From IMG/VR virus record IMGVR_UViG_2740892219_000010, positions 1 through 64,000 of that record: a stretch of 64,000 bases of DNA; one strand, written 5' to 3'. Positions 43,821 to 61,124 of the stretch are shown piece by piece. The position numbers were made by a program, and so were the translations under genes. The first letter of the stretch is position 1; every line of letters begins with the position of its first letter. The notes beneath the pieces were generated by a model that worked only from the letters and a program-made list of their open reading frames with translations, was not told the origin of the DNA and searched no databases. The stretch is from a virus. Lineage: Duplodnaviria > Heunggongvirae > Uroviricota > Caudoviricetes.

Positions 43821-44806
43821 AAAGGGTTCAATTCAACTGCAGCCTCTAAATGACCTGGAGCAAAATGCGCATAACGCATAGTCATTTTTATATCGCTATG
43901 CCCCAGTATTTTTTGCAACACAAGAATATTTCCTCCCCGCATCATAAAATGACTGGCAAACGTGTGACGTAGCACATGAGTTAATTGCCCATCAGGAAGC
44001 TCGATCTTCGCTCTCTTAATTGCAGCGTCAAAAGCCTCATAACATGGTGAAAATAACGCTCCTCGTTTTTTAGGAAGCATAGCCTGCAATTGAGGTGAAA
44101 TCGGTACAGTGCGGTTCTTCTTTCCTTTAGTTTTAACAAATGTGATTCGACCGGGCAGCACTTGAGATTGCTTTAATCCTTCAGCTTCACTCCACCGAGC
44201 ACCAGTCGCAAGCCCAATACGGACAACAACCCCCAAATCTTTATTCCGTGACTCATCACACGCAATCAGAAGGCGTTCAATCTCATCTACATACAGAAAC
44301 GCCAATTCCTTTTCTTCCTCACGAAACTTGCGAATGCCAGTCAGGGGGTTTTCACCAGACCACTCCCCAAGGCGCTTCAGTTCGGCAAAAACAGCATGTA
44401 GATATGACTGCTCGCGATTAACGGTTGCTTCACTAAGTTTTTTCTTCCCCTTGGGATTCCATTCTCCTGATAACCTCCTTTCCCGATAAGTAGCAAACAT
44501 ATTTTTGTCAAACTGAGAAGCAAATGGATCTCCCAGCCTAGAACAAATAGACTCAAGTTTGACTTTGCGCTCTGCACCAGAGGACAAGGTTTTACCGTAC
44601 ATCTCAAACCAACGAGCAACCAACTCAGAAAGACGAGGACCAGAACCATCTTGAAACTCGTCTCCAACTCTACTATTCATTAAACGGCGCTCATAAGAGA
44701 GCGCCTCACTTTTTGTCGCAAACTGTTTACGAATACGTTTTCCCGATGCCCCGTAAGGATAACATTCGCAAAGCCATTTACCTGATGGAATCTTACGAAC
44801 CGACAT
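43805..44806 (-). CDS. int: tyrosine integrase (P2/186 Int family)
   Basis: 333 aa; catalytic box HVLRHTFASHFMMRGGNILVLQKILGHSDIKMTMRYAHF; transcribed toward the tRNA-Leu core. Confidence 0.85.
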   Translation of the reverse strand: MSVRKIPSGKWLCECYPYGASGKRIRKQFATKSEALSYERRLMNSRVGDEFQDGSGPRLSELVARWFEMYGKTLSSGAERKVKLESICSRLGDPFASQFDKNMFATYRERRLSGEWNPKGKKKLSEATVNREQSYLHAVFAELKRLGEWSGENPLTGIRKFREEEKELAFLYVDEIERLLIACDESRNKDLGVVVRIGLATGARWSEAEGLKQSQVLPGRITFVKTKGKKNRTVPISPQLQAMLPKKRGALFSPCYEAFDAAIKRAKIELPDGQLTHVLRHTFASHFMMRGGNILVLQKILGHSDIKMTMRYAHFAPGHLEAAVELNPFDNRG

Positions 44807-46782: not shown

Positions 46783-47133
46783 ATGAAAAAAAACACTAAT
46801 ATTCCATACTCCAAATTTCGTAATGGCGTAGAACGCCACGCTAACCGTTTCGCTATCAGAACATCACGTAGCAACACTCGCTACAGCCTGAGCGAAACAC
46901 ACGCTACACCTGATGGCCATCCCGTAAAACAAATTGGTGAACACACCTGGCTGATTGAGAAAGCTGGAATCGTGGTTCACAGATGCCAACGCAACCCATT
47001 TACCGGAAACCGCATTTTTGCTCTGAGCAACGGCGACAATCAGTTTGGACAGGATTTCACGTTGTACGAAGCTCTGCGCACGGTTGATCGTCTGCTACGC
47101 GGACAGAATTTCATTAAACAGGCTGATTTATAA
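46783..47133 (+). CDS. hypothetical early protein
   Basis: 116-aa ORF in the early operon. Confidence 0.4.
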   Translation: MKKNTNIPYSKFRNGVERHANRFAIRTSRSNTRYSLSETHATPDGHPVKQIGEHTWLIEKAGIVVHRCQRNPFTGNRIFALSNGDNQFGQDFTLYEALRTVDRLLRGQNFIKQADL

Positions 47134-47143
47134 CAGGTGCTTT

Positions 47144-47422
47144 ATGACCAAAGACCATGCTCAGGGTGTATTTATCCGCTTTATTGATTTTCGCGGTGAG
47201 CTGTTGTTGCGCGCATCAGCTATTGATGGAGTGGTTCCGGTAGATAAAAGCACGGCCACTTACATTTATCTGAACGGCACACGCCTGACCGTAGAGATTC
47301 CATATCAACCCGTATGCGAAATTATTAGCGAAGCTGAAAAAGCACGTCAGGTTAATGGCGATAAACCCTATCTCGAAATTATCTGCATGGATTCAGAAGC
47401 TGAAATTCAGAAGGCAGATTAA
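47144..47422 (+). CDS. hypothetical early protein
   Basis: 92 aa from an internal ATG of ORF 47045-47422. Confidence 0.35.
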   Translation: MTKDHAQGVFIRFIDFRGELLLRASAIDGVVPVDKSTATYIYLNGTRLTVEIPYQPVCEIISEAEKARQVNGDKPYLEIICMDSEAEIQKAD

Positions 47423-47433
47423 AGGGCGTTGCG

Positions 47434-47676
47434 ATGGATAAAGAATATAAAACTCTCGTCAATAAAGCACTTGAGCGCTTTCATTTTCGCTTAAACGCAT
47501 CAGGCGCTCATGCTGAACGCGCAGCCCGAGAGTCATTGACCAGAGCTATCAAGAGTATATACGACACGGCTTTTTACGTTGACGACCCGGACGCGCTCGA
47601 CGAGCTTTCCGTACTCGTCTGCGCCGCAGAAAACGGGGACCATATTGAGCCATATAAACTGGGAAATATTGCATGA
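47434..47676 (+). CDS. hypothetical early protein
   Basis: 80-aa ORF. Confidence 0.35.
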   Translation: MDKEYKTLVNKALERFHFRLNASGAHAERAARESLTRAIKSIYDTAFYVDDPDALDELSVLVCAAENGDHIEPYKLGNIA

Positions 47677-47872
47677 GTATATTTATCTCATGGCTTGTTC
47701 TGATTATTTCGGTGGCCTGCGCTATTGGGATTATGCGAATTATTAATTCAGTAAAAAAGATTGAACGCTTTTTCACTGAAGAATAACCGCGCAAATAAGA
47801 CTCCAGGTTAAATAAGAAAATGTGAAAACAATCCGCATTCGCGGAGGTATTCGCACACGCCAAGGAGGCGTA

Positions 47873-48076
47873 ATGGCAATTAAGCATTTTCCTGTCGTTC
47901 GTTTCACCTCCAGAGGACGTGAATACGAAGTTGACGAACGCCTGATTACCACAATCGACAAACACCGTTCAGAAAAGGATGCACATCACATCTATCTCAC
48001 TGACGGTACTTACTTCTGCGCCACCAACGTGGTGCAGGTGAATCTTATCAGACAGGTACAGGAGTCACGCAGATGA
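47873..48076 (+). CDS. hypothetical early protein
   Basis: 68 aa from an internal ATG of ORF 47822-48076. Confidence 0.3.
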   Translation: MAIKHFPVVRFTSRGREYEVDERLITTIDKHRSEKDAHHIYLTDGTYFCATNVVQVNLIRQVQESRR

Positions 48077-48318
48077 CCATTCTGGACTACATCGCTGCCA
48101 ATCCGGGTTGTAGCGGTGGAGAAATCGCCGCAGCACTGAATACACCAACCACAACCATTAATGCGGAGCTACGCCGTCTCTGGCGCAGCGGTTCAGTCAT
48201 AAGAAAAGAGCGCAAAACAGGCGGTCGCTTTTCTTATCAGGTAAACCCGATGCCGTTTGGGTGTAGCAACCCACTAACCCAGATGTTCAACCAGCTACTG
48301 AGGGAAATCAGAGCATGA
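48073..48318 (+). CDS. hypothetical protein, winged-helix-like
   Basis: 81 aa; segment GCSGGEIAAALNTPTTTINAELRRLWRSGSV. Confidence 0.35.
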   Translation: MTILDYIAANPGCSGGEIAAALNTPTTTINAELRRLWRSGSVIRKERKTGGRFSYQVNPMPFGCSNPLTQMFNQLLREIRA

Positions 48319-48459
48319 GCACCTCCTGCTGCCGGAAACCACGTCGGGCTTCAGCAGCTCATCCGGCAGCAAAACAAACTCCGTTAATTCCTGTTCCGGG
48401 CCTTTCCTGCACCTTGCGGCGGGAGGCCTTCGCACATCTGCAACAAGAGGATTGCCGCA

Positions 48460-48825
48460 ATGATTCTCGCCGAAGACTTTTTTGATTACCTGCTGAAAAC
48501 CGAGCGCGATTTTGGTATTCGCGTTCTCGACCGCTATGCAATGTATCTGAAATCACTGCCGGAACAGCAGCTCCCGGACGGCCAGATTGTTATTGACGGG
48601 CGCTACATGGTTGGTAGCTGCCAGGATGATTACACACTTTCCCGCATCGAAAGCGGCACGCCTTCCGTACTGGGTATTTACCAGCGAACTTCATTTCTGA
48701 TTGCTGATGTAATTGCTGACAGCATTCGCATAACACACCGTTATGCCAGCACAGAGAGCACCATGCAGGAAATCCAGCGGCTGGCTACCGTCTGCCACAA
48801 TGCACTGAGCGGCAAGGCGGAGTAG
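48460..48825 (+). CDS. hypothetical early protein
   Basis: 121-aa ORF immediately upstream of the A gene. Confidence 0.35.
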   Translation: MILAEDFFDYLLKTERDFGIRVLDRYAMYLKSLPEQQLPDGQIVIDGRYMVGSCQDDYTLSRIESGTPSVLGIYQRTSFLIADVIADSIRITHRYASTESTMQEIQRLATVCHNALSGKAE

Positions 48826-48830
48826 TCAGC

Positions 48831-51653
48831 GTGGCAACGGAGTACATCAGAAACTGGCAACAACCACGCCATGCAGTCGGTCGCGAGGGAACGGGGGAGC
48901 CTGTCCGCCCCTCCCTTCTTTCTTCCTGGCTGGATGCCTACCGGGCAGAGAACGAGCGCCGCCAGGAAATGGCTGATGCGGCGTTCTCCGCCACGCCGCT
49001 GGGCAATTTGATTAATAAAAACCTGGACGCACAGGAAAAACAGGACAAAGCCATCACACTGGCAAGAGAAGCCAGAAAACAGGCGTGTGGCGCGGTGGAT
49101 GAAGCAATTGCCGCACTGCGCCTGCTGCCGTCCTATCTGCGAGATCCGCTTATCCGCCATCTCTCTTTCCTGCGCAAAAAACAGGAATCCGATCGTCAGA
49201 AAGGCAAAAAGAGCTGGCAGGCTGAACGCTACGCGCGCGGAACCCTGCGCAAAATATTCGAACGTCTGGAGCGCACCGACAGACGCTGGCTGACACCGGG
49301 TTATCGCTCCCTTGCCGGGCGTGAACGCCTGGATGATTTACTTTACCTGCCGCAGCTCAACAAACACCAGATACAGACGCTGGCCGTCATGACAGCGGCG
49401 ATGTTCAGCAGCACCTTCGAAAAACTCTGCGATGACTTTGGCGCGACCGATGGCGAGCTGACCATGGATATAACGCTGAAGGCGTATCAGATGCTGGCCC
49501 GCATGGCGTTACATCTGCACACAGTGCCGCCGCATTATGACGCACTGACAACAGACAAAGACCGGAAGAACGAACCGGACACGGAGCTGCTGCCGGGTGC
49601 AATCCTCCGCCTGACCTGTGCGGACTGGTGGAAACGCAAATTGTGGCTTTTACGTTGCGAATGGAGAGAGGAACAACTCCGCGCTGCCTGTCTGGTTTCC
49701 AGAAAAACATCCCCCTATCTGAGTCAGGACGCATTAAGTGAATTTCGCGCACAGCGCGAGAAAACACGCGATTTCCTGAAAAGTTTCATGCTGGAAAATG
49801 AAGACGGGTTCACGATTGATCTTGAGACGGTGTATTACGCGGGAGTAAGTAACCCGGTCCACCGTAAGGCAGAAATGATGGCCACCATGAAGGGGCTGGA
49901 ACTTCTGGCCGAAGCCCGTGGCGACAAAGCGGTATTTCTGACCGTTACCTGCCCGTCAAAATATCACGCAACAACGGAGAACGGTCATCCGAATCCCAAA
50001 TGGAACGGCGCCACCATGCGCGATTCCAGCGATTACCTGGTTAACACTTTTTTTAAGGCAGTCCGCAAAAAACTGAACCGCGACGACCTGCGCTGGTATG
50101 GTATCCGCACGGTGGAGCCACACCATGACGGCACCGTGCACTGGCACATGATGGTCTTTGCACATCCTGAAGAAATCGACAGCATCGTGGACATCACCCG
50201 TGATATTGCCATTCGCGAAGACCGCCACGAGCTGGGCAATGACATAACTCCGCGCTTTAAGGCAGAGTACGTCGACGGTTCGAAAGGTACGCCGACCAGC
50301 TACATCGCCACCTACATCGGAAAGAACCTGGACAGCCGCGCCGTGGATGGCATTGACCCGAAAACAGGCAAGCCACGCGTTGATCACGAAACCGGAAAAT
50401 CAATGACCGAGAGCGTGGAACGCGCCATCGGCTGGGCGCGCCTTCACCGCGTCCGCCAGTTCCAGTTCTTTGGTATCCCCTCCCGTCAGGTATGGCGTGA
50501 ACTCCGCCGCCTTGCCAGTCAGATGGCCCGCAACCCGGAAGGTCCACAACGTCTGGAAAATGACGCAATGGATGCGGTACTCGCTGCCGCTGATGCCGGG
50601 TGTTTTGCCACCTACATTGAGAAACAGGGGGGCGTACTTGTTCCACGCAAGGATTACCTGATTCGCACCGCCTACGACCTCGCAGAAGAGCTGAACGATT
50701 ACGGCGAGCAAAGCGTACAGATTTACGGGATCTGGTCGCCACAAATCGGGGAATCTTCCCGCGTGTGCACGCACCCGGATAACTGGAAGCTGGTAAGACG
50801 TAAACCGGAAGCGGAAGACAGCGCCCGCGAAAATGGTTTTGACCTTCAGGGCGGCCCTGCCGCCCCTTGGACTCGTGGCAATAACTGTCCCCGTGTACAG
50901 GAAACGGACAACAACGGGACAGAACAGCCGGAAGAACGGCCAGCACCGTGGCCGCAGCTTCCTGACGGCGTTGAAGTGAATGAATGGATGCGCTCACTGA
51001 AACGGCACGAACGCCGGGCGCTGATGCGTTCGCTGCGTGACAAACAGGCAAAAAACAGCAGTGATGAAATGCAGAACTGGACACAGAGCCGCAAACAGCC
51101 GCGGCCTTTGCCTGATAACCACGAGTTACTCGCTAAAGAATGGCGGGAGTCTGCCGAATCTCTCGGCCTGCATATCGGTAAACAACAGATGCTGCACCTG
51201 TTACGGGGCGGCAGTCTGTACGTTGACGGCAGCATCATTGCGCCGCAGGGATATGAAATTGTACGTAAACCGGATACCCGACCGGACAGCCGAATCACGC
51301 AGCTCTGGCAGCGCCTGAGCCGTAATCACAGCGTAAGCAGCACGGAGATCCGCCATAACCCGGTTTCCAGCTATCTGAAACAGCTCGGTGCATCAGACCC
51401 AGAAGCCGCCGCACGCCTGGCATCCACACTTCAGCAGGACCAGAACACCATGAAAACCCCCGTTACCGTGCTTTCTGACATGCTGCGCGCCATCCGTGAC
51501 GCAGAGCACGCACAGAGAATCAGTGAAACCACTGAACGCGCCCACCGCAAAGCAGACCTGCTGCGGGGTGGCCTGACCCGTGGGAACAAAAAACAGACAG
51601 AAACGGGATTCACAAATCCCGTAAATGAGCAAAAAACGCGCCGCGAAATATGA
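48831..51653 (+). CDS. replication initiation endonuclease (P2 gpA-like rolling-circle Rep) with long C-terminal extension
   Basis: 940 aa; HUH-type motif (TVHWHMMVFAH) and Tyr motif (SYIATYIGKNLD); P2 A is ~760 aa, so ~180 extra C-terminal residues. Confidence 0.8.
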   Translation: MATEYIRNWQQPRHAVGREGTGEPVRPSLLSSWLDAYRAENERRQEMADAAFSATPLGNLINKNLDAQEKQDKAITLAREARKQACGAVDEAIAALRLLPSYLRDPLIRHLSFLRKKQESDRQKGKKSWQAERYARGTLRKIFERLERTDRRWLTPGYRSLAGRERLDDLLYLPQLNKHQIQTLAVMTAAMFSSTFEKLCDDFGATDGELTMDITLKAYQMLARMALHLHTVPPHYDALTTDKDRKNEPDTELLPGAILRLTCADWWKRKLWLLRCEWREEQLRAACLVSRKTSPYLSQDALSEFRAQREKTRDFLKSFMLENEDGFTIDLETVYYAGVSNPVHRKAEMMATMKGLELLAEARGDKAVFLTVTCPSKYHATTENGHPNPKWNGATMRDSSDYLVNTFFKAVRKKLNRDDLRWYGIRTVEPHHDGTVHWHMMVFAHPEEIDSIVDITRDIAIREDRHELGNDITPRFKAEYVDGSKGTPTSYIATYIGKNLDSRAVDGIDPKTGKPRVDHETGKSMTESVERAIGWARLHRVRQFQFFGIPSRQVWRELRRLASQMARNPEGPQRLENDAMDAVLAAADAGCFATYIEKQGGVLVPRKDYLIRTAYDLAEELNDYGEQSVQIYGIWSPQIGESSRVCTHPDNWKLVRRKPEAEDSARENGFDLQGGPAAPWTRGNNCPRVQETDNNGTEQPEERPAPWPQLPDGVEVNEWMRSLKRHERRALMRSLRDKQAKNSSDEMQNWTQSRKQPRPLPDNHELLAKEWRESAESLGLHIGKQQMLHLLRGGSLYVDGSIIAPQGYEIVRKPDTRPDSRITQLWQRLSRNHSVSSTEIRHNPVSSYLKQLGASDPEAAARLASTLQQDQNTMKTPVTVLSDMLRAIRDAEHAQRISETTERAHRKADLLRGGLTRGNKKQTETGFTNPVNEQKTRREI
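51604..51621. promoter_or_regulatory. palindrome CGGGATT-CACA-AATCCCG (copy 1)
   Basis: 7-bp inverted arms; inside the 3' end of the A gene; second copy 73 bp downstream. Confidence 0.45.
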
Positions 51654-51676
51654 AGCGCGCACAAAACAGGCAAAAG

Positions 51677-51694
51677 CGGGATTTCAGAATCCCG
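51677..51694. promoter_or_regulatory. palindrome CGGGATT-TCAG-AATCCCG (copy 2), upstream of parM
   Basis: Same arms as copy 1; 36 bp upstream of the parM start; candidate centromere or operator element. Confidence 0.45.
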
Positions 51695-51729
51695 TAAACG
51701 ATTAATTAATCAACATAAGGAAAATCGAC

Positions 51730-52689
51730 ATGAAAATTTGCATCGACGACGGCTCCACCAACATCAAGCTGGCATGGACTGAGAACGGCGAACGCCGCAA
51801 CGCCATCAGCCCGAACAGCTTCAAGTCGGAATGGTCTGCGCCGTTCGGTGGCTCGCAGCCTGCGAACTACCTGCTTGATGGCGTGCGCTATGGTTTTGAT
51901 CCGGTCAGCGATCGCTTTGTCCAGACGACCGACACGCAATACCAGTACAGCGATGTGAATGTAATCGCCATTCACCACGCACTGGTCAAATCAGGCATCA
52001 CACCACAGGAAGTGGATGTGGTTGTCACCCTGCCACTGAGCGAATATTTCGACACAAACGCACAGCCGGACATGGCCAACATCAACCGCAAAAAAGCGAA
52101 CGTCATGCGCCCGGTGGAGTACCAGAACGGTGAGGCATTCACTATCCGTAACGTGCGGGTTATGCCTGAATCCATTCCGGCTGGCTTTAAGGCACTGGCT
52201 GACATGAGTCCGTTTGAATCCCTGCTGATTGTGGATTTGGGCGGAACCACGCTGGATGTGGCAAAGGTTCAGGGGCAACTGGCAGGCATCAGCCAGGTGT
52301 TTTGCGATCCACACGTAGGCGTTTCCCTGATGGCTGATGCCGTGCTGTCGGTGATGGCCACTAACGGTATGCGTACCAGTCACCACATCGCCAATACCAT
52401 TATTGAGCACCGTCACGATGAAGCCTGGCTACGCCAGCACATTCACAATGACGCGCATTACAACAGCCTGATGGCGGTTATTCGTGAAAAGGAGGAGACA
52501 CTGAAACAACGCGTGATCCGCGCACTCGCGGGCTTTTCGGGTTACGGGCGGGTGCTGGTTGTCGGTGGAGGAGCGGAGATTGTGGCACCCGCAGTCCGTG
52601 AAGTCTATGGAGTCAATGCGAATTTCATCACAGACGGGGTGCCACAGTTTGCTCTGGTTAACGGTCTGTACGCTATGGATAAGGAGTAA
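51730..52689 (+). CDS. parM: ParM/StbA-family actin-like segregation ATPase
   Basis: 319 aa with strong collinear similarity to plasmid R1 ParM as recalled (ICIDDGSTNIKLAW; QYSDVNVIAIHHAL; LIVDLGGTTLDVAKV; VVGGGAEIV). Confidence 0.8.
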   Translation: MKICIDDGSTNIKLAWTENGERRNAISPNSFKSEWSAPFGGSQPANYLLDGVRYGFDPVSDRFVQTTDTQYQYSDVNVIAIHHALVKSGITPQEVDVVVTLPLSEYFDTNAQPDMANINRKKANVMRPVEYQNGEAFTIRNVRVMPESIPAGFKALADMSPFESLLIVDLGGTTLDVAKVQGQLAGISQVFCDPHVGVSLMADAVLSVMATNGMRTSHHIANTIIEHRHDEAWLRQHIHNDAHYNSLMAVIREKEETLKQRVIRALAGFSGYGRVLVVGGGAEIVAPAVREVYGVNANFITDGVPQFALVNGLYAMDKE

Positions 52690-52695
52690 CCCTCC

Positions 52696-53007
52696 ATGGC
52701 GACATTAACCAGAAGAATAAGTTTCTATCTGAAGCCAGCCGCCGTCAAGAACGAAGGCGAAGCATGCGCCTAGCTGGACAGCCTTACACCAGAAGCCCGC
52801 AAAAGCGGCCAGCGCGTGGCTTTTCTGGCCGGGCTGGCACTTCTGAAGATGAATCCGGCAGAGGCTTACCGACTGGCTGCATGGGCTGATGATGAAGCGT
52901 TATCAGTGACACAAACCAGGACAGAATCCCCCGCGTCACAGCCAGTATCAACCGCACAGATAACCAGTCAGATAGCAGGGAATATCCGGGCATTATTTCC
53001 TGAATGA
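52696..53007 (+). pseudogene. parR: parR-like gene interrupted by an in-frame amber codon
   Basis: ATG 52696 with RBS AAGGAG; 25 codons (MATLTRRISFYLKPAAVKNEGEACA) then TAG at 52771-52773; same frame continues open to 53007 with a ParR-like segment (AFLAGLALLKMNPAEA...NIRALFPE). A GTG at 52816 could restart translation without the N-terminal domain. Confidence 0.45.
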
Positions 53008-53067
53008 CGAATTTGACGGCTTTTAATTTTATCGGGGTGCACTGTCGCCCCGCACGAGGAAAACACG

Positions 53068-53592
53068 ATGAAAAAATACGAATACATGCTAATGAAAGAA
53101 GCACTGCGGGCTGGTCTGGCTCCCTGTCCTGTATCCGTAGAAGCTGTTGTTGGGAACACGATTTTCCGAACGCTGCGAAATCGCGTATCCGTGAAGATGA
53201 TTCACCAACCACCCAAATCTACCAGCATGATCTATCTGCCGCTGCCCGAGGCTATCAAACTTATGCGTTCGCTGAAATTTGCGATTTGGATGCAGACACA
53301 ACTCAACAAAGCGGTGCAAAACACCTTCGTCAAGAAACTGATGCCGGAGCTTGCTGCCAGACGTGCAAAATGTACCAGACCCGCACTTCAATTTGATCTG
53401 TCATTGATTCAACAAGCTACGGAGGCAGAACTGTACCGCCTGTCACCTCTCCGCGATGCTCACACGGAAGCCTCAGAAATGTTCCGGCTCATGTTTCAAT
53501 TTAATTTTGCCGTTCGACGCACACGCGTTCAGGTCAATCGCATGATGCAGGCGCAGGAAGAGCTGGCGCAACACAAAGGAGACAACCAGTGA
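53068..53592 (+). CDS. hypothetical protein (P2 A-to-cos hotspot cargo)
   Basis: 174 aa, RBS GAGGAAAA; no recognised family. Confidence 0.45.
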   Translation: MKKYEYMLMKEALRAGLAPCPVSVEAVVGNTIFRTLRNRVSVKMIHQPPKSTSMIYLPLPEAIKLMRSLKFAIWMQTQLNKAVQNTFVKKLMPELAARRAKCTRPALQFDLSLIQQATEAELYRLSPLRDAHTEASEMFRLMFQFNFAVRRTRVQVNRMMQAQEELAQHKGDNQ

Positions 53593-54128
53593 GCAAGATT
53601 GACTATCAGGCACTACAAATGGCAGCAGAACGGGCAATTCCGGCAATGGAACGCCTGTTAATATTGCCAGTTGATGATGATTTGTTAAGCGAACAGGAAC
53701 TTAAAGATTGCGGTGTGGATATTGACGCGATCAACACCTTCAGACTTCTGGCTGGACCGGAAGACATGCTGGCACTGCTGGATGAACTGGAAACAGCAAA
53801 AAAGCGCATCGCTGAACTGGAAAAAATCGCAACTGACCATGCACTTAAATTCCAGAAAGCACAGGACGCATTAAAGTATGCCGCTTTGCTGCATAGCCGA
53901 ACGGCGCAACAAACCAATAATTTTGCAGTATTGCTTTCGGACATAAGCGAATATTTCATTAATAACGTATTTCAGCCCTTGCGATACGAGCGAGACGTTG
54001 AAAGAGCCATCATAAAGGCTGGCGGAAAAGCATTGTGGCAGGAGAAGCACGAGGAAAGAACGCATCAGCTAAGTGATGTAAATAGTGGATGGTTATGCCC
54101 ACTGACAGAAGGTAAAAAGAACACCTAA
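53589..54128 (+). CDS. hypothetical protein (possibly Ead/Ea22-like; hotspot cargo)
   Basis: 179 aa, overlaps the upstream stop; N-terminus MSKIDYQALQMAAERA resembles the start of Ead/Ea22-like phage proteins as recalled. Confidence 0.4.
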   Translation: MSKIDYQALQMAAERAIPAMERLLILPVDDDLLSEQELKDCGVDIDAINTFRLLAGPEDMLALLDELETAKKRIAELEKIATDHALKFQKAQDALKYAALLHSRTAQQTNNFAVLLSDISEYFINNVFQPLRYERDVERAIIKAGGKALWQEKHEERTHQLSDVNSGWLCPLTEGKKNT

Positions 54129-54129
54129 T

Positions 54130-54618
54130 TTCCTCTCAAACCAGGGCGATAATCGCGCATCGCCCTGCTGCACAATAGTGCACAAATTTGCACAATTTTT
54201 TTGAACGACTTTTTGCCCTTCCGGCCCGCGTGGCGGCTGGATCCGTCAAGGATCCGTGCGTGCACAAAAAAACGCGTTTTTTCTGCGCGCAGGTGACGGG
54301 GGAACAGCCCGCGTTTCAGGGGGTAAATAGCATCCCCTGAACGATGTCGCAGAGACACAACAGAATGGCCGTATTTCTCACGCTGAGCGTGAAAAATACG
54401 TGAGGGATTCTGATTTGATGGGGTGAAAGGTAAGGCCGTCAAAATCGCACTGAGGCGGCGAGAACATGCAGTCAACGCGGTGGGATTGAGTAAGAGTCTG
54501 ACCGTCGATGGTGGCGATAAACTGGAAGGCGTCGTGAAATTATCTGACTGATACAGGAGCTGGAGAGTCGGGGCATAAATTTTTATGCCCCGGCGAAGCA
54601 GCAGACAAGCGAAGCGCG
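54130..54618. other. non-coding region in the position of P2 cos / packaging site
   Basis: ~490 bp without convincing ORFs between the cargo genes and portal Q; contains three tandem 10-bp repeats TGCACAAWWK (54171-54200) and palindromes; cosN not identifiable by eye. Confidence 0.4.
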
Positions 54619-55665
54619 TCAGGATGTGGGCTGGGTGTCTAACAGTGCGTAAGGGTTAAAGCGGATCACCTCTTCGCCAAGCCAGTCATTGATGTGCTTC
54701 ATGGCCTCCATGACGGGCATCAGCTCGTTAATTGCGTAAACCCGCGCGGCCTTCTCCACATCACCAAACGCACTTTTTTCACCCGGCATCGCCCCCATCA
54801 GTTGCGGCGGAACGCGGTGCGCAGCCAGCACATCATCACGGGATGCCGCCTTAACATTCATGAACTCATCCTTTGCGGTGATCTGCTGGAACGGCAAAAT
54901 TTGCACCCCCTCTTTGCCCCCGTTGGGCGCATGAATGAGCACGTTTTTAAACGCACCACCACCACGCGCACCCTGTAGCGTTTCTTTCAGGGAGTCCATG
55001 CTTTCGCGGTTTACCTGCGCTGCACCGATGTAGATGATGCACCCGGCGTGGGATCCATTGTCGTAATACAGTTTTCTGAACATGTCCGCCGAATGAGACA
55101 GGCTGGCCGAGAGTAATGCGCCGAGATATTCCGGCATGCCGTAGATTTCCTGGTTAATGTCAGGATTCATCAGGTGGCACACTTTGCCAGGGCGAAACTG
55201 AAACGCGTCCTTACCATCCTGCACATACCACCATGATTCAAGATCGCTTCCGCGTCGCATGTATTTCGCCAGGGCGTGCCGTAATTTAAGCGGTTCGCCG
55301 AGCATATTGCTTCGAAGCTCAAGAAATGCGTTACCGAACACAAACCAGTCCAGCGCCAGCGCCGAGAAATCCTGCCGGGAAAGCAGCGGGTGCGGAATAT
55401 AGCAACCGAGCAATACATTGCGCTTAAAGTAAAGCGCAGACTGATGCCAGGACGTTTGCCGGGCGGATCTTGCCAGACCGTACCAGTCCACCGGGGTTTC
55501 ATACCACCGCCCGTTATCAGCACAGTACATATTGTCCAGCAGGTCATGCCCGGTCAGGCGATAAGGACCATCAAATGTGAATGCACTGAGCGATGATTCT
55601 TTCCTGAGCGCATCAGCGAGATCAATGCGTGAACTCATGCGCACTTTTTTATTTTTTCTGCTCAT
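54619..55665 (-). CDS. portal protein (P2 gpQ-like)
   Basis: 348 aa (P2 Q is ~344 aa), divergent from the O-N-M-L operon, adjacent to terminase P. Confidence 0.85.
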   Translation of the reverse strand: MSRKNKKVRMSSRIDLADALRKESSLSAFTFDGPYRLTGHDLLDNMYCADNGRWYETPVDWYGLARSARQTSWHQSALYFKRNVLLGCYIPHPLLSRQDFSALALDWFVFGNAFLELRSNMLGEPLKLRHALAKYMRRGSDLESWWYVQDGKDAFQFRPGKVCHLMNPDINQEIYGMPEYLGALLSASLSHSADMFRKLYYDNGSHAGCIIYIGAAQVNRESMDSLKETLQGARGGGAFKNVLIHAPNGGKEGVQILPFQQITAKDEFMNVKAASRDDVLAAHRVPPQLMGAMPGEKSAFGDVEKAARVYAINELMPVMEAMKHINDWLGEEVIRFNPYALLDTQPTS

Positions 55666-57416
55666 CAGAACTCCATAACCGTGAAACGCTCGTTTTCTCC
55701 TTCGCCGCCAATCGGTTCGTTAATGACAGCAAGCATGGTTGCCCACGCAAGGTCGCCGTGGCTGATCCCCCTCGCGCGGTCCGTTTCGTAAGTGATAAAG
55801 CCGCCCGGTGTTTTCACCTTACGCACGGCGTTAAAGGCCGCGACCAGCTCGCGTTCGGCGCGATCGTATTCCCACCGGCCGGCACGCATTATTTGCAGCA
55901 TTTTCAGTACCAGCGACCGTTTTGATGACAGCGTGAAGGTGTACGGAATAGCTGCAGGGAAAAACCGTTTCACTATCTGATAAACAGCCTCCCCATTCCC
56001 GCCCGTCACATCAATGCCGATGTGTTCCACGTTGTAGCGACACGTGAACTCTTCAATGACTCTGGCCTGTTCTTCAAACTCCAGCCCCTGAACGCGTCGC
56101 GTCTCCACCGTTCGAAAACGGCCACCAGGAACAGCCGGAGGAACCACCACGGACACAGCGCCGCTGTCGCCGTTGCCACTGCTGCCGTTTGCGTCATACC
56201 CAATCCATACCGGACGATTCCCCATCGGGCGGGGAGCAAAAGGTTTCCAGTCTTTCCAGTCGTCGTATCCGTCAACACCGCAGCCAATCAGGATATTCAG
56301 GTTAAATGCCGATTCCCCTTCGCGGACAAACTCACACATATAGAGATTGAGGAACTCGTCTTCGGTGTTTTCATCACGAATTTCGTCGATATCGGTGTGT
56401 TTCCAGCCGTGATTGACCACATCTTCCAGCGTGACAATTTGCCGCCACGTCCGGTCAGGGCAGATAAGCCCGTTATGCAGCGTTTTCCAGTCCACAGAAA
56501 AACGCTGGCGTTTATGCGAGGCCTTTTTCTCGTTCCAGCGGTCGCCGTTCCAGTAGGCGTATGCCTCGTGCGTTTCGGTGGATGGCGTGGAGAAGTAGGT
56601 GCGCCGCAGTCCGCTGAGGGTTGCCATAGCGCCAGCCACCTTACGCAGTTCAGCAAAGCGACTGACCCAGAAAAATTCATCAAAATAAAAATTGCCCGTA
56701 TAGGACTGTGCCGACGCAGCAGAAGTGCCGAGAAAATGCAGCTCTGCGCCGTTGGAGAGGATGATTTTATCGCCCCCTTTCAGCTCCACATCAACTTCAG
56801 CCGCGGCCTTCTGAATAATGCTTTTAAACTGGAACGCCTGACGACGCGACGCAGACAAAAAAATCTGGTTACGCTGGTAAGGTTGCGCCACATCGTCACG
56901 CAGCGCCATCAGCAGAGCTTCCTGTGCAAAATACCAGGTCGCCCCAATCTGTCGGGATTTCAGGATCATCCTGTTACGTATCCCGGCTTCCCTGCAAAGG
57001 GTCAGGGAGTCAAACCAGCCCCGCTGATGCCACTCCAGCCTGCTGATGATTTTTTCCCGCAGTGCGGCAATCTGTTCCGGCGTGAAATGATTTTTGAGTT
57101 TTTTCGCCCGGCCTTTCTTTCCTGCGGCCATCACATCCGGCTGGCCATCATGCAGCTTTTTAAGCTGCCGGGTCAGCAGGTCTATTTCCTTAAAGTCACC
57201 GCCTGTTTTATTCTGTTTTTCAGTAAGCTGGATGAGGCGCGCATCGATGGACTGCGTGACACGCTGCACGGGTGGCGTTTCATCCCACTGGTCACGTTTT
57301 TTCCACGCATAAATCGTGTTCGGGTTTATTCCCATCAGACGTGATATTTCTGCGGGCGGATAACCCTGCCAGTAAAGTTGCCGCGCACGCTGGCGCACAA
57401 AAGCGTCCTGAATCAT
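55665..57416 (-). CDS. terminase ATPase/large subunit (P2 gpP-like)
   Basis: 583 aa (P2 P is ~590 aa), overlaps the portal start by 1 nt; the long plus-strand ORF 56022-57344 on the opposite strand is judged spurious. Confidence 0.85.
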   Translation of the reverse strand: MIQDAFVRQRARQLYWQGYPPAEISRLMGINPNTIYAWKKRDQWDETPPVQRVTQSIDARLIQLTEKQNKTGGDFKEIDLLTRQLKKLHDGQPDVMAAGKKGRAKKLKNHFTPEQIAALREKIISRLEWHQRGWFDSLTLCREAGIRNRMILKSRQIGATWYFAQEALLMALRDDVAQPYQRNQIFLSASRRQAFQFKSIIQKAAAEVDVELKGGDKIILSNGAELHFLGTSAASAQSYTGNFYFDEFFWVSRFAELRKVAGAMATLSGLRRTYFSTPSTETHEAYAYWNGDRWNEKKASHKRQRFSVDWKTLHNGLICPDRTWRQIVTLEDVVNHGWKHTDIDEIRDENTEDEFLNLYMCEFVREGESAFNLNILIGCGVDGYDDWKDWKPFAPRPMGNRPVWIGYDANGSSGNGDSGAVSVVVPPAVPGGRFRTVETRRVQGLEFEEQARVIEEFTCRYNVEHIGIDVTGGNGEAVYQIVKRFFPAAIPYTFTLSSKRSLVLKMLQIMRAGRWEYDRAERELVAAFNAVRKVKTPGGFITYETDRARGISHGDLAWATMLAVINEPIGGEGENERFTVMEF

Positions 57417-57570
57417 TGCTCCCCCTGAGTAATTACAGGAAGATTACCCGCGCGCGAAACTGTTCTCCTTAACCCCCTGTTCTGGCCGTTTTCTTACAAC
57501 AAAAGCCCTTTGTATCAGCCTGTTACGCTTTGCCATCATGACTGAAGAACCAGTCAGAGGGGCAAAAACT

Positions 57571-58407
57571 ATGGCTAATGAAAAAAAGACATCCCGCAAA
57601 AAGTTTCGCGTGGCTGTCTCCGGATCAACTGTTGATGGCCGTGAAATCAGTCCGGTGCATCTGCGTGAAGCCGCCGAGAACTTCAACCCGGATGTTTACG
57701 CTGCCCGCGTGAACGTTGAGCACTATCTCTCGCCATGCCCGTCAAGCGAATTTTCCGCAATGGGCGATGTCACCGCACTGAGTACGGAAGACATTACGGA
57801 AGGTCCGCTGGCCGGACGTACTGCGCTGTATGCAGAAATCGAACCGACCGAGCGCATGAAGCAGCTTGTCGCGGACGGCAAGAAAATCTATTCCAGTATC
57901 GAACTGCACCCGCAGTTCTCCGTTAACGGGCGCGCCTATCTGGTCGGGCTGGCGATGACCGACACCCCGGCAAGCCTGGGCACTGAGCGCCTGAAATTCA
58001 CGGCACAGCAACGTCAGGCGGTGATGACGTTCAACAGTGTCCAGGGTGAAGCGCCGCTTATCTCCGAAGCCATCGAGTCTGAAATCATCGAAATGGCAGA
58101 ACAACGCCAGGAAGCAGGCACCCAGTGGTTTAACCGCGTAATGGGGATTATTGGCCGTGGCCGCAAAGCGGATGACGCCAGTTTTTCCCGTATTCAGGAA
58201 GCGGTGGAAGGCGTCGCAACGTCACAGGCCGACATTATCGACCGTTTTAATGTGCTGGAAACCCGCCATCAGCAGGACCGCCAGAAAATCACGTCACTGA
58301 CCACAGAGCTGGCAGCACTGAAGGAAAAACTGCGCACGCAGGACGGCGATCCGCAGAACCGGTTCACCGCAACGGGCGCAGCCTCCGACCAGCTGGCTGA
58401 CTTCTGA
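57571..58407 (+). CDS. capsid scaffolding protein (P2 gpO-like)
   Basis: ~278 aa from ATG 57571; collinear with P2 O as recalled (FRVAVSGSTVDGREIS; YLVGLAMTDTPASLGTERLKF). Confidence 0.8.
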   Translation: MANEKKTSRKKFRVAVSGSTVDGREISPVHLREAAENFNPDVYAARVNVEHYLSPCPSSEFSAMGDVTALSTEDITEGPLAGRTALYAEIEPTERMKQLVADGKKIYSSIELHPQFSVNGRAYLVGLAMTDTPASLGTERLKFTAQQRQAVMTFNSVQGEAPLISEAIESEIIEMAEQRQEAGTQWFNRVMGIIGRGRKADDASFSRIQEAVEGVATSQADIIDRFNVLETRHQQDRQKITSLTTELAALKEKLRTQDGDPQNRFTATGAASDQLADF

Positions 58408-58430
58408 TAAGACAAAGGAGCAAATTTTTT

Positions 58431-59483
58431 ATGAATCTGGTGATGTCAGATATTACCCGCAACAAGCTGGGCTGCTATATGGCGCAGCAGGCGTCGCTTA
58501 ACAATATCCCGGTTTCCGCACTGGTATCGCGATTTACCGTGGAACCCTCGGTACAGCAGCGTTTTGAAAACGCCTCAAAGGAAAGCACCGAATTTACAAA
58601 AAGAATTAACGTGATCGGCGTGACCGACCAGAAAGGCGAAAAAATCCTCCTGGATACCACCGGGCCGATTGCGCGCACGAATACCAGTTATGACGGCACA
58701 AAACGCCGTAACCCGAATAACGTGGTTGATCTGAAAAACCGCAAATACCAGTGCGAACAGGTGAACTACGACACGTTTATTTCATATCCGCAGCTTGATG
58801 CCTGGGCGGCACACCCTGATTTTCAGTCCCGCATCAGCGCACAGATTGCCCGACAGGTGGCACTTGACCGCATCATGATCGGTTTCAACGGCACGTCTCA
58901 CGCGGATGAGTCCAACTTCAGCACCAACAAGTTGCTTCAGGACGTTAACGTGGGGTGGCTGGAGCACATCAGAACCGACGCCAGCGAACGCGTTATGAAT
59001 GACGTGACGCTGACCTCCCGTAACATGGACAACACCGTGGCGCACGCGGGTAAGTATGCGAACGCTGATGCACTGGTACAGGACGCGCGCTCATCCCTGC
59101 TGGATGAATGGCACAAGGAAGCTGACGACCTCGTGGTGATTATGGGGCGCAACCTGTTTAACTCGCTGCGTCTGCCCGTGCTGAACAGCATCAGCGGCCA
59201 GAATCCCAATGCGGAATTACTCGCCGGGCAGCTCATTCTGTCATCGCGCACCATTGGCGGGCTGGGCGTGTTCCTTGCGCCGTTCTTCCCGGATTCAACG
59301 ATGCTGATCACCTCGTTCAACAACCTGTCGATTTACTGGCAGAAAGGTTCAATGCGTCGTCTGATGAAAGACGAACCGGAATACAACCGCATCGCCACCT
59401 ACCAGTCCATCAATGACGCTTATGTCGTTGAAGACTATGGCAAGTGCGCGATGGTCACTGGCCTGAAGTTCGCCGACAGCTAA
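58431..59483 (+). CDS. major capsid protein (P2 gpN-like)
   Basis: 350 aa with extensive similarity to P2 N as recalled (FTVEPSV; MIGFNGTS; LLQDVNVGWL; LVVIMGRNL; MLITSFNNLSIYW; YVVEDYG). Confidence 0.9.
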   Translation: MNLVMSDITRNKLGCYMAQQASLNNIPVSALVSRFTVEPSVQQRFENASKESTEFTKRINVIGVTDQKGEKILLDTTGPIARTNTSYDGTKRRNPNNVVDLKNRKYQCEQVNYDTFISYPQLDAWAAHPDFQSRISAQIARQVALDRIMIGFNGTSHADESNFSTNKLLQDVNVGWLEHIRTDASERVMNDVTLTSRNMDNTVAHAGKYANADALVQDARSSLLDEWHKEADDLVVIMGRNLFNSLRLPVLNSISGQNPNAELLAGQLILSSRTIGGLGVFLAPFFPDSTMLITSFNNLSIYWQKGSMRRLMKDEPEYNRIATYQSINDAYVVEDYGKCAMVTGLKFADS

Positions 59484-59528
59484 TCAACTCACGGCGGGCA
59501 TCATGCCCGCCTGTAACGGAGAGAAAAA

Positions 59529-60326
59529 ATGATTACTCCTGCACAGCAACACTGGCAGAACGTGATGGCACAGCGCGCGGGCCGGGCGAATGAAGGCGTG
59601 GACCACGCTGCGCGTACCGCGCATGAAGAGGTGCTGTATCGTCTGCGTCTGGCACAGGCCCGGCTTAAGGGCGTACAGGCCAGAAGCGCGAAAGCCGCCA
59701 TCAAAAAAGAGTTATTGCCGGATTTTTCCGGCTGGATTGAGGGAACGCTGGAGGCTGACGGCGGGCAGCAGGATGAAGTGATTGCCACGCTGATGGTGTG
59801 GGCGATTGACTGTGGCGATCTTCCGCTGGCGTTGCGTATTGGTGCGTATGTGGTCCGTCATAACCTCATTATGCCGGATAACTTTGGCCGTACTGCTGCC
59901 ACGGTACTGACCGAAGAAATCTGCAACCCGGTACTGACGCAGGCCGGGGCGGATGCCGACGCGGATTTGTCCGCCTTTATCGAACCACTGGACACCCTCC
60001 AGAAGATTGTCACCGACCAGGACATGCCGGACGAAGTGCGCGCCAAATTATGCAAGGCGTGCGCCTTTGCCCGTCGTGGTCTGAGTGATGCGGACAGCAT
60101 GGCCCTGTCACTGAAGCTGCTGCGCGAAGCAATGCACCTGAACCCGAACGCAGGTGTGAAACGCGAGATTGCAACCCTTTCCCGCGCCCTGAAAAAAGCC
60201 GATTCCGCAGCCGCACCAGTTGCCAGCGCACAGCAGGCGCAGGACGAAAGCAGCAAAAGTAAAAAGACAACGCGGAAGCCTGCAACACGAAAAACCACCG
60301 CGACGCAGAAGGCGAAGCGCGGTTAA
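59529..60326 (+). CDS. terminase endonuclease/small subunit (P2 gpM-like)
   Basis: 265 aa; similarity to P2 M as recalled (KKELLPDFSGWIEGTLE; DMPDEVRAKL; AGVKREI). Confidence 0.8.
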   Translation: MITPAQQHWQNVMAQRAGRANEGVDHAARTAHEEVLYRLRLAQARLKGVQARSAKAAIKKELLPDFSGWIEGTLEADGGQQDEVIATLMVWAIDCGDLPLALRIGAYVVRHNLIMPDNFGRTAATVLTEEICNPVLTQAGADADADLSAFIEPLDTLQKIVTDQDMPDEVRAKLCKACAFARRGLSDADSMALSLKLLREAMHLNPNAGVKREIATLSRALKKADSAAAPVASAQQAQDESSKSKKTTRKPATRKTTATQKAKRG

Positions 60327-60418
60327 CGACTGACCCCGTCAGCGGGCGGCGTGCGCGGTGTTCCGGTTTGACTCCGTGACCGTTTACACCACGCACCCAC
60401 CGCCCGATTTTTTCAGGA

Positions 60419-60922
60419 GTGAACCCCATGAGTATGGTTGCCAGAACCGAAACCCGCCCCGCAGAGGATGACATCACTGATACCGATGATGGCGATACCC
60501 GTATTTCTGCGGGGGCATTCTGGCCGGATATTGTGCTGCGTGAGCTGCGTCTGGCGGTACGACTGCCGGGCCGCGTGACCACCTCCCGCCTGCTGCATAC
60601 CGCCACCGGGGCGGTGGCCCACGTTACCCGTGAGCTGGAAGCGTGGCAGCAGGAACAGCAGGCAGCCGGACACGAAACACTGGCCGATGTCCCGGCGCCA
60701 TTAATTAACGGAGAAAGCGTCAATCTCTGGCACTGGCGCAATGCGGTTTACACCGCCACCCGTGCCCTGATTCTGGAGCGTTACCGCGATGCGGACACAA
60801 CGGATAAGGGCGAGCGCCGGGCAGATGCACTGGACGCACAGGCTGCGGACCTGTGGCGCGATGTGAGCTGGGCCATCTCTGACATTCTGGGAAGACCACG
60901 AATGTTTGCGGAGCTGTGCTGA
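60419..60922 (+). CDS. head completion/stabilisation protein (P2 gpL-like)
   Basis: 167 aa following M in P2 order. Confidence 0.75.
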   Translation: MNPMSMVARTETRPAEDDITDTDDGDTRISAGAFWPDIVLRELRLAVRLPGRVTTSRLLHTATGAVAHVTRELEAWQQEQQAAGHETLADVPAPLINGESVNLWHWRNAVYTATRALILERYRDADTTDKGERRADALDAQAADLWRDVSWAISDILGRPRMFAELC

Positions 60923-61122: not shown

Positions 61123-61124
61123 CG

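What the first reader, a model, noticed from the sequence alone, without database searches (positions are those of the whole stretch)
51730..53007. ParM segregation locus in the P2-like A-to-cos hotspot, with parR interrupted by an in-frame amber codon
The ORF at 51730-52689 is a convincing ParM/StbA actin-like ATPase. The downstream ORF starts with a good RBS and a ParR-like N-terminus but hits TAG at codon 26 (52771-52773), and the same frame then continues open through a ParR-like C-terminal segment. Either parR is a recent nonsense pseudogene, or it is expressed as an N-terminally truncated product from GTG 52816, or by amber suppression. A plasmid-type partition system in an integrated P2-like prophage suggests a phage-plasmid ancestry or a repurposed filament system.
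Basis: partly seen in the sequence, partly recalled or inferred. Interest (0 to 1): 0.6.

Follow-up and report, generated by a model that had tools for sequence, protein, structure and literature searches.

The report
Broken parR in a phage ParMR cassette
A P2-family (P88-like) prophage carries its usual actin-like DNA-partition gene pair, and in this one bacterial lineage a single G-to-A change has turned tryptophan codon 26 of the adaptor gene parR into a stop, an ordinary recent gene knockout, not a new kind of system.

Summary
51730-52689 encodes an intact ParM, a close homologue of plasmid R1 ParM. 52696-53007 is a 103-codon parR homologue with TAG at codon 26 (52771-52773).

The stop is one G-to-A transition of TGG (Trp26). 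Two public contigs are identical to the window over 1,390 nt except for that base. No copy in 609 complete E. coli genomes with this stretch has TAG. Nor does any IMG/VR or metagenome contig, or any named phage. The TAG allele recurs, 100% identical over 6,960 nt, in Escherichia albertii E2675 and in a separate sequencing run. It is therefore real and lineage-private.

parMR is not hotspot cargo. It is a backbone module of P88-like (Xuanwuvirus) phages: parM is in 1,279 E. coli genomes against 1,321 with the P88-type A gene, and it is under purifying selection. Two conserved palindromes upstream of parM are a candidate centromere/operator.

The best reading is a recent nonsense pseudogene that uncouples ParM from DNA. 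The GTG 52816 restart has no ribosome-binding site. Programmed readthrough is excluded by the lack of conservation. Low interest; already known.

The parts
48831..51653 (+). P88-type replication gene A (940 aa), immediately upstream. It is the likely source of read-through transcription into parMR.
   Evidence: Pfam Phage_GPA E 1.2e-129. Annotated as replication endonuclease in relatives.
51587..51701 (.). Candidate parC/operator: two 42-nt direct repeats 73 bp apart, each an A-rich tract followed by a palindrome.
   Evidence: the repeat finder family D1, 79% identity. Present in 94 of 95 distinct related haplotypes. Conserved in a Hafnia relative. ParR binding is not tested.
51604..51621 (.). 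Palindrome 1, CGGGATT-CACA-AATCCCG, inside the 3' end of gene A.
   Evidence: Exact match to CGGGATTNNNNAATCCCG. Chance expectation is 0.31 per window even with 2 mismatches allowed. Arms are identical in the Hafnia relative while the centre differs.
51677..51694 (.). Palindrome 2, CGGGATT-TCAG-AATCCCG, in the A-parM intergenic region, 36 nt before the parM ATG.
   Evidence: Across both palindromes, 24 of 24 arm bases are conserved against 38% divergence at 4-fold sites of parM.
51730..52689 (+). parM, an intact actin-like ATPase of 319 aa.
   Evidence: Identical in nucleotide sequence to copies that have intact parR. Population pN/pS 0.07.
52696..53007 (+). parR, the ribbon-helix-helix adaptor gene of 103 codons, here a nonsense pseudogene.
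52771..52773 (+). TAG at codon 26. The ancestral codon is TGG (Trp26); the G-to-A change is at 52772.
   Evidence: L010 and L012 differ from the window only here over 51630-53019. TAG absent elsewhere. TGG present in at least 120 IMG/VR contigs.
52816..53007 (+). Hypothetical GTG-initiated 63-aa remnant ORF. Expression is not supported.
   Evidence: Anti-SD duplex -1.9 kcal/mol against -8.8 for the native start. This exact product is absent from the 15-billion-protein collection.
54178..54193 (+). Terminator-like hairpin with a T-run after the Ead/Ea22-like gene; probable end of the A-parM-parR-orf174-ead transcription unit.
   Evidence: Consensus scan. No + strand terminator-like site was found between A and parM. 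One weak 5-pair site lies inside parM at 52279-52296.

Best explanation
The locus is the standard type II (ParM/ParR) partition cassette of P88-like peduoviruses (genus Xuanwuvirus). It sits directly after replication gene A. In this prophage lineage, probably Escherichia albertii, one G-to-A transition at 52772 changed Trp26 (TGG) of ParR to amber.

Shown:
- Homology of both genes to ParM and ParR.
- The ancestral state of codon 26 is TGG.
- The mutation is private and recent.
- The cassette is under purifying selection in the phage population.
- Two palindromes upstream of parM are conserved.

Inferred, how the intact cassette works: ParR dimers bind the two GGGATT-N4-AATCCC sites, and the ParR C-terminal helix captures ParM-ATP filaments. 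The cassette appears to be co-transcribed with gene A in the early operon. The filaments would then move or separate extrachromosomal circular phage genomes after infection or induction.

Inferred, effect of the mutation: translation stops after 25 residues, inside helix 1 of the ribbon-helix-helix domain. No DNA-binding adaptor is made. ParM is uncoupled from phage DNA and any ParR autoregulation is lost. If the operon is silent in the lysogen, the knockout is invisible to selection there, which would explain how it persists.
For: - ParM.
- ParR family, fold and domain layout. The model has helix 18-29 containing residue 26, helices 32-52 and 54-61, a disordered linker 66-85 and a C-terminal helix 86-100. 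That helix aligns with the R1 ParR C-terminus.
- Single-base origin: L010 and L012 equal the window over 51630-53019 except at 52772.
- Allele is real: L011 (run ERR14096836) and L014 (GCA_001514865.1, E. albertii E2675) are 100% identical over 6,960 nt and carry TAG.
- Allele is private: best identity to the 61-mer is 98.4% in all 609 matching E. coli genomes. There are no exact TAG matches in IMG/VR or the metagenomes, against at least 120 TGG matches.
- Cassette is functional elsewhere: among 91 related loci, 87 have intact parR and all but one have intact parM. pN/pS is 0.07 for parM and 0.30 for parR. It is present in the active phages P88 and phiSM (PMC6456863).
- Backbone status: parM covers at least 80% in 1,279 genomes, against 1,321 for P88-type A.
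- Candidate centromere.
- No RBS for a restart. No tRNA gene in the window.
Against: - No expression or protein data exist. Low-level near-cognate readthrough of UAG cannot be excluded, and position 26 tolerates W, Y, F, L and T across the family.
- The TAG-bearing public records may come from the same strain or clone as the window. They exclude a one-off assembly error but say little about spread.
- ParR binding to the palindromes, co-transcription with A and any role in phage DNA movement are all inferred. The consensus scan found no promoter on the + strand, which is also why autoregulation is uncertain.
- No study of this cassette in P2-family phages turned up in the four literature searches aimed at it.
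Confidence: 0.85

Rival explanations
1. An N-terminally truncated ParR is made from GTG 52816 (63 aa) or ATG 52849. It keeps the C-terminal ParM-binding helix and acts as a DNA-free modulator or cap of ParM filaments.
For: The frame stays open to the normal stop, and the C-terminal motif NIRALFPE is intact. Ribosomes terminating at 52773 could in principle reinitiate 45 nt downstream.
Against: Shine-Dalgarno pairing is -1.9 kcal/mol at GTG 52816 and -4.3 at ATG 52849, against -8.8 at the native start. The product would lack the strand, helix 1 and part of helix 2 that form the dimeric fold. The allele differs from intact copies by the stop alone, with no accompanying adaptive change. No such product is on record.
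Confidence: 0.06
2. The amber codon is read through, either by a host suppressor tRNA or by near-cognate decoding. Enough full-length ParR is then made for the cassette to work, and the stop acts as a throttle.
For: Residue 26 is variable in the family: W, Y, F, L, and T in R1. A substituted product could therefore fold. From memory of the literature on fourth-base effects on termination (not checked here), a C after the stop, as in TAG-C, is the weakest termination context in E. coli.
Against: The stop is not conserved. Every other copy has a sense codon, so this is not a designed recoding site. No tRNA gene lies in the window. Basal readthrough is typically a small percentage, whereas a ParR-parC complex needs many dimers (general knowledge of R1 and pB171 ParR).
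Confidence: 0.05
3. The TAG is a sequencing or assembly error and the gene is intact.
For: It is a single-base difference from otherwise identical sequences.
Against: The same base is present in a draft assembly (GCA_001514865.1, contig seen in 2 samples) and in an independent read-set assembly (ERR14096836). Three further similar places were not shown. The change is a substitution, not a homopolymer indel.
Confidence: 0.03
4. Loss of ParR was selected, not neutral. One route is that a prophage centromere complex or an active partition system interferes with the host or with resident plasmids. Another is that derepressed ParM is useful to the host.
For: Inactivating mutations in this cassette recur sporadically: parM Q183stop in L085 and singleton frameshifted parR products.
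Against: Such events are rare, about 1-3 per 90 loci, and each is a singleton. That fits mutation and drift in prophages. Strong purifying selection acts across the population, and there are no parallel hits at the same site in E. coli.
Confidence: 0.05

Closest known systems
parMRC (stbAB) of plasmid R1 / IncFII, the type II partition system
   Same: Same gene order, parM then parR a few bases later. ParM is a close homologue of R1 ParM over its full length (phmmer E 1.9e-92; the plasmid ParMs that carry R1-type parR are 46.5-46.9% identical). ParR shares the N-terminal block R6, F10, P14, L27, R35, G46, A48, L49 and a C-terminal helix that aligns with the ParM-binding tail. Repeated DNA lies upstream of parM.
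   Different: ParR is only about 23% identical and shorter, 103 against 117 aa. The upstream DNA has two 18-bp palindromes 73 bp apart, whereas the IncFII locus has an array of short A/C-rich direct repeats. The carrier is an integrative phage, not a low-copy plasmid. In this window parR is a pseudogene.
parMR module of Escherichia phage P88 and Citrobacter phage phiSM (Xuanwuvirus, Peduoviridae)
   Same: Same position (A-parM-parR), 93-94% nucleotide identity, same palindromes. PHROG families 691 and 2515, both named 'partition protein'.
   Different: Those phages have TGG at codon 26 and an intact 103-aa ParR. They also carry different cargo genes after parR and a different integrase/immunity module.
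AlpC/AlpA of Corynebacterium glutamicum prophage CGP3
   Same: An integrated prophage encoding an actin-like protein plus a co-transcribed DNA-binding adaptor. The adaptor binds upstream of the operon. The system is induced early and is needed for efficient replication of the circular phage DNA (PMC4446434). It is the best functional analogue for what the intact cassette may do.
   Different: No detectable sequence relationship was sought or found here. The phage family and host phylum are different.
srpMRC of SXT/R391 integrative conjugative elements
   Same: A ParMRC-type system carried by an element that normally sits in the chromosome. It stabilises the transient excised circular form (PMC4489591).
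   Different: That element is conjugative, not a phage, and is only distantly related to R1 ParMR. The cassette here is much closer to R1 ParM.
StbA-type partition gene of phage-plasmid D6 (P1-like)
   Same: The only other phage record with a ParM relative, 46.9% identical.
   Different: D6 is a 91-kb plasmid prophage for which partition is expected. P88-like phages carry an integrase and are chromosomal in 1,449 of 1,451 E. coli places.

Membership tests
Type II (ParMRC) partition system | Actin-like ATPase ParM with both ParM domains | tested here: met
   Pfam StbA_N 1-157 and ParM C-terminal domain 159-316. R1 ParM E 1.9e-92. DDGSTNIK, DLGGTTLD and VVGGGAE motifs are visible in the alignment.
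Type II (ParMRC) partition system | Adaptor ParR: N-terminal ribbon-helix-helix DNA-binding domain, encoded just downstream of parM | tested here: met
Type II (ParMRC) partition system | The adaptor gene is an intact open reading frame in this copy | tested here: not met
   TAG at codon 26. The homologous position is TGG in otherwise identical copies.
Type II (ParMRC) partition system | ParR C-terminal peptide that binds ParM | tested here: inconclusive
   A conserved C-terminal motif (N96, NIxxLFP) aligns with the R1 ParR C-terminus and is predicted helical at 86-100. No interaction test is possible.
Type II (ParMRC) partition system | Centromere parC: repeated ParR-binding sites next to the operon, usually spanning its promoter | tested here: inconclusive
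   Two palindromes in 42-nt repeats 73 bp apart. Arms are 24 of 24 conserved against 38% neutral divergence. No iteron array, no promoter found by scan, no binding data.
Type II (ParMRC) partition system | Stabilises or moves a replicon in vivo | not testable with these tools
   Needs plasmid-stabilisation or imaging experiments.
P88-like peduovirus (Xuanwuvirus) prophage | Collinear P2-type genome with P88-type gene A, followed by parMR, cos region, portal and terminase | tested here: met
   93-94% identity to P88, P884B11 and phiSM. Collinear with a complete P88-like genome from 46816 to 64000. Pfam for integrase, portal and terminase.
Phage-plasmid (prophage maintained as an episome) | Extrachromosomal maintenance in lysogens and no reliance on integration | tested here: not met
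   Integrase at 43805-44806 and chromosomal context. 1,449 chromosomal against 2 plasmid places in E. coli. Only one 34.5-kb circular record equals a whole phage genome.
Programmed stop-codon readthrough / recoding site | The stop codon is conserved among homologues | tested here: not met
   Codon 26 is TGG, TAC/TAT or TTG in all other loci. TAG is absent from E. coli genomes, IMG/VR and the metagenomes.

The most novel reading that the evidence does not exclude
P88-like peduoviruses are found in about a quarter of complete E. coli genomes. They may use a dedicated ParMR cassette with an unusual two-palindrome centromere, expressed together with the rolling-circle initiator A. Its job would be to position or separate monomeric circular phage genomes during lytic growth or before integration. 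That would be a phage cytoskeleton in a small integrative phage, comparable to AlpAC of CGP3. The W26amber lineage would then be a ready-made natural knockout for testing it.
Probability: 0.4. Interest if true: 0.5.

Novelty: already known. Interest (0 to 1): 0.2.

Why it matters
For this window it matters little. It is a lineage-specific nonsense mutation in a well-annotated phage gene pair, and it should simply be annotated as a parR pseudogene.

The wider point is modest but real. An R1-type actin partition cassette is a conserved, selected backbone module of an integrative P2-family phage present in roughly 24% of complete E. coli genomes. I found no functional study of it. The intact TGG copies and this otherwise identical TAG copy form a natural isogenic pair for asking what ParMR does for such a phage.

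Tried and rejected
- tblastn of ParR against plasmids found only prophage-borne copies, so R1-type ParR had to be fetched through its parM neighbour.
- NCBIfam gave no usable hit for either protein.
- Rfam found no RNA family in 51300-54700. The RNA fold z-score of -4.5 for the leader merely reflects the repeated palindromes.
- PADLOC gave no defence-system hit for parM, parR or the two downstream genes.
- I looked for covariation between the two ParR allele types and palindrome variants and found none. Both types share the N-terminal strand.
- Within close relatives, per-site conservation of the leader was too uniform to be informative. The Hafnia relative was needed.
- P0058, a 77-aa database protein that starts at codon 27, hinted at a second hit at the same codon, but it could not be traced to a contig.
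- Three literature hits on 'ParM' were false matches to the author names Parma and Parmley.
- The genome-contig scan returned a single, probably mislabelled, contig.

Full report
**1. The observation**

- ATG 51730 to TAA 52689 is a 319-codon ORF preceded by AAGGAAAA.
- Six bases after its stop, ATG 52696 (preceded by AAGGAG) opens a frame that hits TAG at 52771-52773 (codon 26).
- The same frame then stays open to TGA 53005-53007. GTG 52816 is in that frame.

The first ORF is ParM. Pfam StbA_N covers residues 1-157 (E 3.8e-82) and the ParM C-terminal domain covers 159-316 (E 1e-66). phmmer against PDB sequences gives R1 ParM 1mwk at E 1.9e-92 over the full length, with the phosphate-binding and adenosine motifs in place.

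The second frame is parR.
- Intact relatives are 103 aa and match Pfam PF10784 (Plasmid_stab_B, that is StbB/ParR) over residues 6-76 at E 1.6e-24.
- The window's 77 post-stop residues still match profile positions 22-71 at E 4.2e-13.

**2. What the stop codon is**

Alignment with phage P88, Citrobacter phage phiSM and an E. coli prophage shows TGG (Trp26) where the window has TAG. The rest of the gene is collinear.

I looked up the window's exact ParM protein in public assemblies.
- Two contigs (L010, L012) are identical to the window at every base of 51630-53019 except 52772, where they have G. The event is therefore one G-to-A transition on a known ancestral sequence, with no further change since.
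- Two other records are 100% identical to the window over 6,960 nt and carry the same TAG. They are L014 (GCA_001514865.1, contig BBVT01000002) and L011 (Logan assembly of run ERR14096836, with three similar places not shown).
- BBVT01 is Escherichia albertii strain E2675, a raven isolate from Japan (PMC5797873). The window is therefore probably E. albertii.

The allele is thus not a one-off assembly error. The TAG-bearing records could still be one clone.

Elsewhere the allele is absent.
- All 609 complete E. coli genomes that match a 61-mer centred on the codon do so with exactly one mismatch.
- An exact 25-mer with TAG has no match in IMG/VR or the JGI metagenomes. The TGG version has at least 120 matches in IMG/VR.
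- In 91 related loci, codon 26 is TGG in 72 full-length copies (two more copies are cut short further on), TAC or TAT in 14, TTG in 1, and TAG only in the two records that equal the window.

**3. The element and the place of the cassette in it**

The surrounding DNA is a P88-like prophage (genus Xuanwuvirus, Peduoviridae).
- It is 93-94% identical to P88, P884B11 and phiSM over the cassette.
- It is collinear with a complete P88-like genome from 46816 to the end of the window.
- Its own integrase lies at 43805-44806, next to the integrase of a neighbouring lambdoid prophage.

The gene order is A (940 aa), parM, parR, a 174-aa ORF, an Ead/Ea22-like gene, a terminator-like hairpin at 54178, the cos region, portal, terminase.

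The position is right but the status is not.
- In complete E. coli genomes, parM is found at 80% coverage or more in 1,279 genomes. The P88-type A gene is found in 1,321. The pair therefore travels with the replication gene as backbone.
- The genes after parR differ from phage to phage: YafO toxin, ClpX zinc-finger protein, HTH/peptidase M78 plus DUF3368, or a membrane protein. The hotspot proper starts after parR.
- About 24% of complete E. coli genomes carry the cassette, in 1,449 chromosomal and 2 plasmid places.

**4. Is the cassette functional in the phage population?**

It is.
- Across 69 distinct parM and 49 distinct parR sequences, pN/pS is 0.07 for parM and 0.30 for parR. For parR it is 0.20 in the N-terminal domain and 0.39 in the tail.
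- Of 91 loci, 87 have a full-length parR and all but one have a full-length parM. The exception, L085, has a nonsense codon at Q183 of parM. A few singleton frameshifted parR products exist in the protein collection.
- P88 and phiSM, both active phages, carry intact copies (PMC6456863).

Sporadic knockouts against a background of strong constraint fit occasional prophage decay. The window's mutation fits that pattern. TGG is also among the most nonsense-prone codons, because two of its nine single-base changes give stops.

**5. ParR anatomy and what the stop removes**

An alignment of phage and plasmid ParRs shows three parts.
- A shared N-terminal block, with R6, F10, P14, L27, R35, G46, A48 and L49 invariant, including in R1-type ParR.
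- A variable linker.
- A conserved C-terminal motif (N96, NIxxLFP) that aligns with the C-terminus of R1 ParR. From prior knowledge of the R1 system, that is the ParM-binding peptide.

An AlphaFold model of a 93%-identical intact relative has these features:
- mean pLDDT 74, and above 90 for residues 20-60;
- an extended N-terminus, then helices 18-29, 32-52 and 54-61;
- a disordered linker at 66-85 and a C-terminal helix at 86-100.

Residue 26 lies in the first helix. The 25-residue product cannot form the ribbon-helix-helix dimer.

A restart at GTG 52816 would begin in the middle of helix 2. It has almost no Shine-Dalgarno pairing: -1.9 kcal/mol, against -8.8 for the native start and -6.2 for parM.

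There is no tRNA gene in the window.

**6. A candidate centromere**

The only conserved non-coding DNA next to the pair is upstream of parM. Two 42-nt direct repeats (51587-51628 and 51660-51701, 79% identical) each end in a palindrome. These are CGGGATT-CACA-AATCCCG at 51604-51621 and CGGGATT-TCAG-AATCCCG at 51677-51694. They lie 73 bp apart, about seven helical turns.

The pattern has two perfect matches in the window. The chance expectation is 0.31 even when two mismatches are allowed. Both sites are present in 94 of 95 distinct related haplotypes.

Close relatives are too similar overall for a footprint. A Hafnia relative (ParM 92% identical) has 38% differences at 4-fold degenerate sites of parM and is informative.
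- All 24 arm bases are conserved.
- The two 4-nt centres keep 4 of 8 bases.
- The 39 nt between the sites keep 21.

This is the signature of inverted-repeat protein-binding sites or of hairpin stems. That ParR binds them is an inference.

The two ParR allele types (56% identical overall) share the N-terminal strand and the same palindromes.

The architecture differs from the array of short A/C-rich direct repeats upstream of R1-type parM.

The consensus scan found no sigma-70 promoter on the + strand, and no terminator-like site between A and parM. I therefore infer that parMR is read through from the early operon with A. Only a weak -10-like element is visible by eye between the palindromes.

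**7. How it most likely works**

Shown: a complete, selected ParM/ParR pair plus conserved upstream palindromes in the phage family, and a private single-base knockout of ParR here.

Inferred for the intact cassette, by analogy with R1 and pB171 ParMRC: ParR dimers bind the palindromes and hold the ends of ParM-ATP filaments, which push the bound DNA molecules apart.

Because the phage integrates, the relevant DNA would be the extrachromosomal circles present after infection or induction. Two experimentally studied cases are analogous:
- AlpAC of the Corynebacterium prophage CGP3 (PMC4446434);
- srpMRC of the SXT/R391 elements (PMC4489591).

Inferred for this copy: no adaptor is made, so ParM, if expressed, is uncoupled from DNA. 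If the operon is repressed in the lysogen, the mutation carries no cost until induction. That would explain its persistence in a lineage.

**8. Rivals**

- A restart product: 0.06.
- Readthrough giving functional ParR: 0.05.
- Sequencing error: 0.03.
- Selected loss: 0.05.

Each is set out with evidence in its own section. The non-conservation of the stop excludes a programmed recoding site.

**9. Comparison and novelty**

ParM is closest to plasmid ParMs at no more than 52% identity, and the plasmid ParMs that carry R1-type parR are 46.5-46.9% identical. Only six plasmid records reach 95% or more, and the ones inspected are prophage copies.

In the phage collection, this ParM occurs only in P88-like phages and, at 46.9% identity, in the P1-like phage-plasmid D6. 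PHROGs already lists both proteins as 'partition protein' families.

One 34,461-bp circular 'plasmid' record is a whole P88-like genome. That is weak evidence for an episomal state and could equally be an excised, replicating phage.

I found no functional study of this cassette in P2-family phages. phiSM's copy is only listed as a putative fitness factor.

The feature in this window is therefore already known in kind and in sequence. The only local novelty is a pseudogenising point mutation.

**Verdict**

Interest is 0.2.

Noticed in passing
window 51587-51705: The 73-bp duplication upstream of parM puts similar peptides in two frames. Copy 1 encodes the end of protein A (...ETGFTNPVNE). Copy 2, in the +1 frame of small ORF 51625-51705, encodes ...KAGFQNPVND. 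An A6 run at 51631-51636 sits where the frames meet. This is probably a by-product of the DNA repeat.
   Followed up: no
window 53008-54618; L001, L002, L003, L015, L016: The stretch between parR and the portal gene carries different genes in each relative: 174-aa ORF plus Ead/Ea22 here, YafO toxin, ClpX zinc-finger protein, HTH/peptidase M78 plus DUF3368, or a membrane protein. This is the real cargo hotspot. The window's two genes gave no PADLOC hit.
   Followed up: partly
L005 (NZ_CP148288.1, 1-34461): A 34,461-bp circular record deposited as an E. coli plasmid is a complete P88-like phage genome with integrase, parMR and all virion genes. It is either an excised replicating phage or an episomal carrier state.
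   Followed up: partly
L085 5001-5957 (IMGVR_UViG_2531839180_000004): Another P88-like prophage has a nonsense codon in parM (Q183stop) with parR apparently intact. This is an independent knockout of the other partner.
   Followed up: partly
L009 (NZ_MK439959.1) and NZ_CP110658.1: P88-like prophages with A-parM-parR also sit inside large conjugative plasmids: IncC pC-Ec2-KPC and a 272-kb Salmonella plasmid. L009 carries a second ParR allele type (104 aa, Tyr26, 56% identical) that shares the N-terminal strand and the same palindromes.
   Followed up: partly
L004 (NZ_JBQPOM010000071.1): The only species-representative genome with the parR 25-mer is labelled Vagococcus sp. WN89Y (226-kb contig). 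An enterobacterial prophage in a Firmicute assembly looks like contamination or mislabelling.
   Followed up: no
window 42467-44806: Two prophages lie back to back. The integrase of a lambdoid prophage is at 42467-43513 (+) and the P2-type integrase is at 43805-44806 (-), about 290 bp apart.
   Followed up: partly
P0058 (77 aa, nr): A database protein annotated in E. coli starts exactly at ParR codon 27 on a different parR allele. This hints at an independent disruption at or before codon 26 in another genome. No contig was on record.
   Followed up: partly
window 52690-52695: The parM-parR spacer is 2 nt longer here, and in L010 and L012, than in P88-type copies (CCCTCC against ACCA). This moves the Shine-Dalgarno sequence from 8 to 10 nt before the parR ATG.
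   Followed up: no
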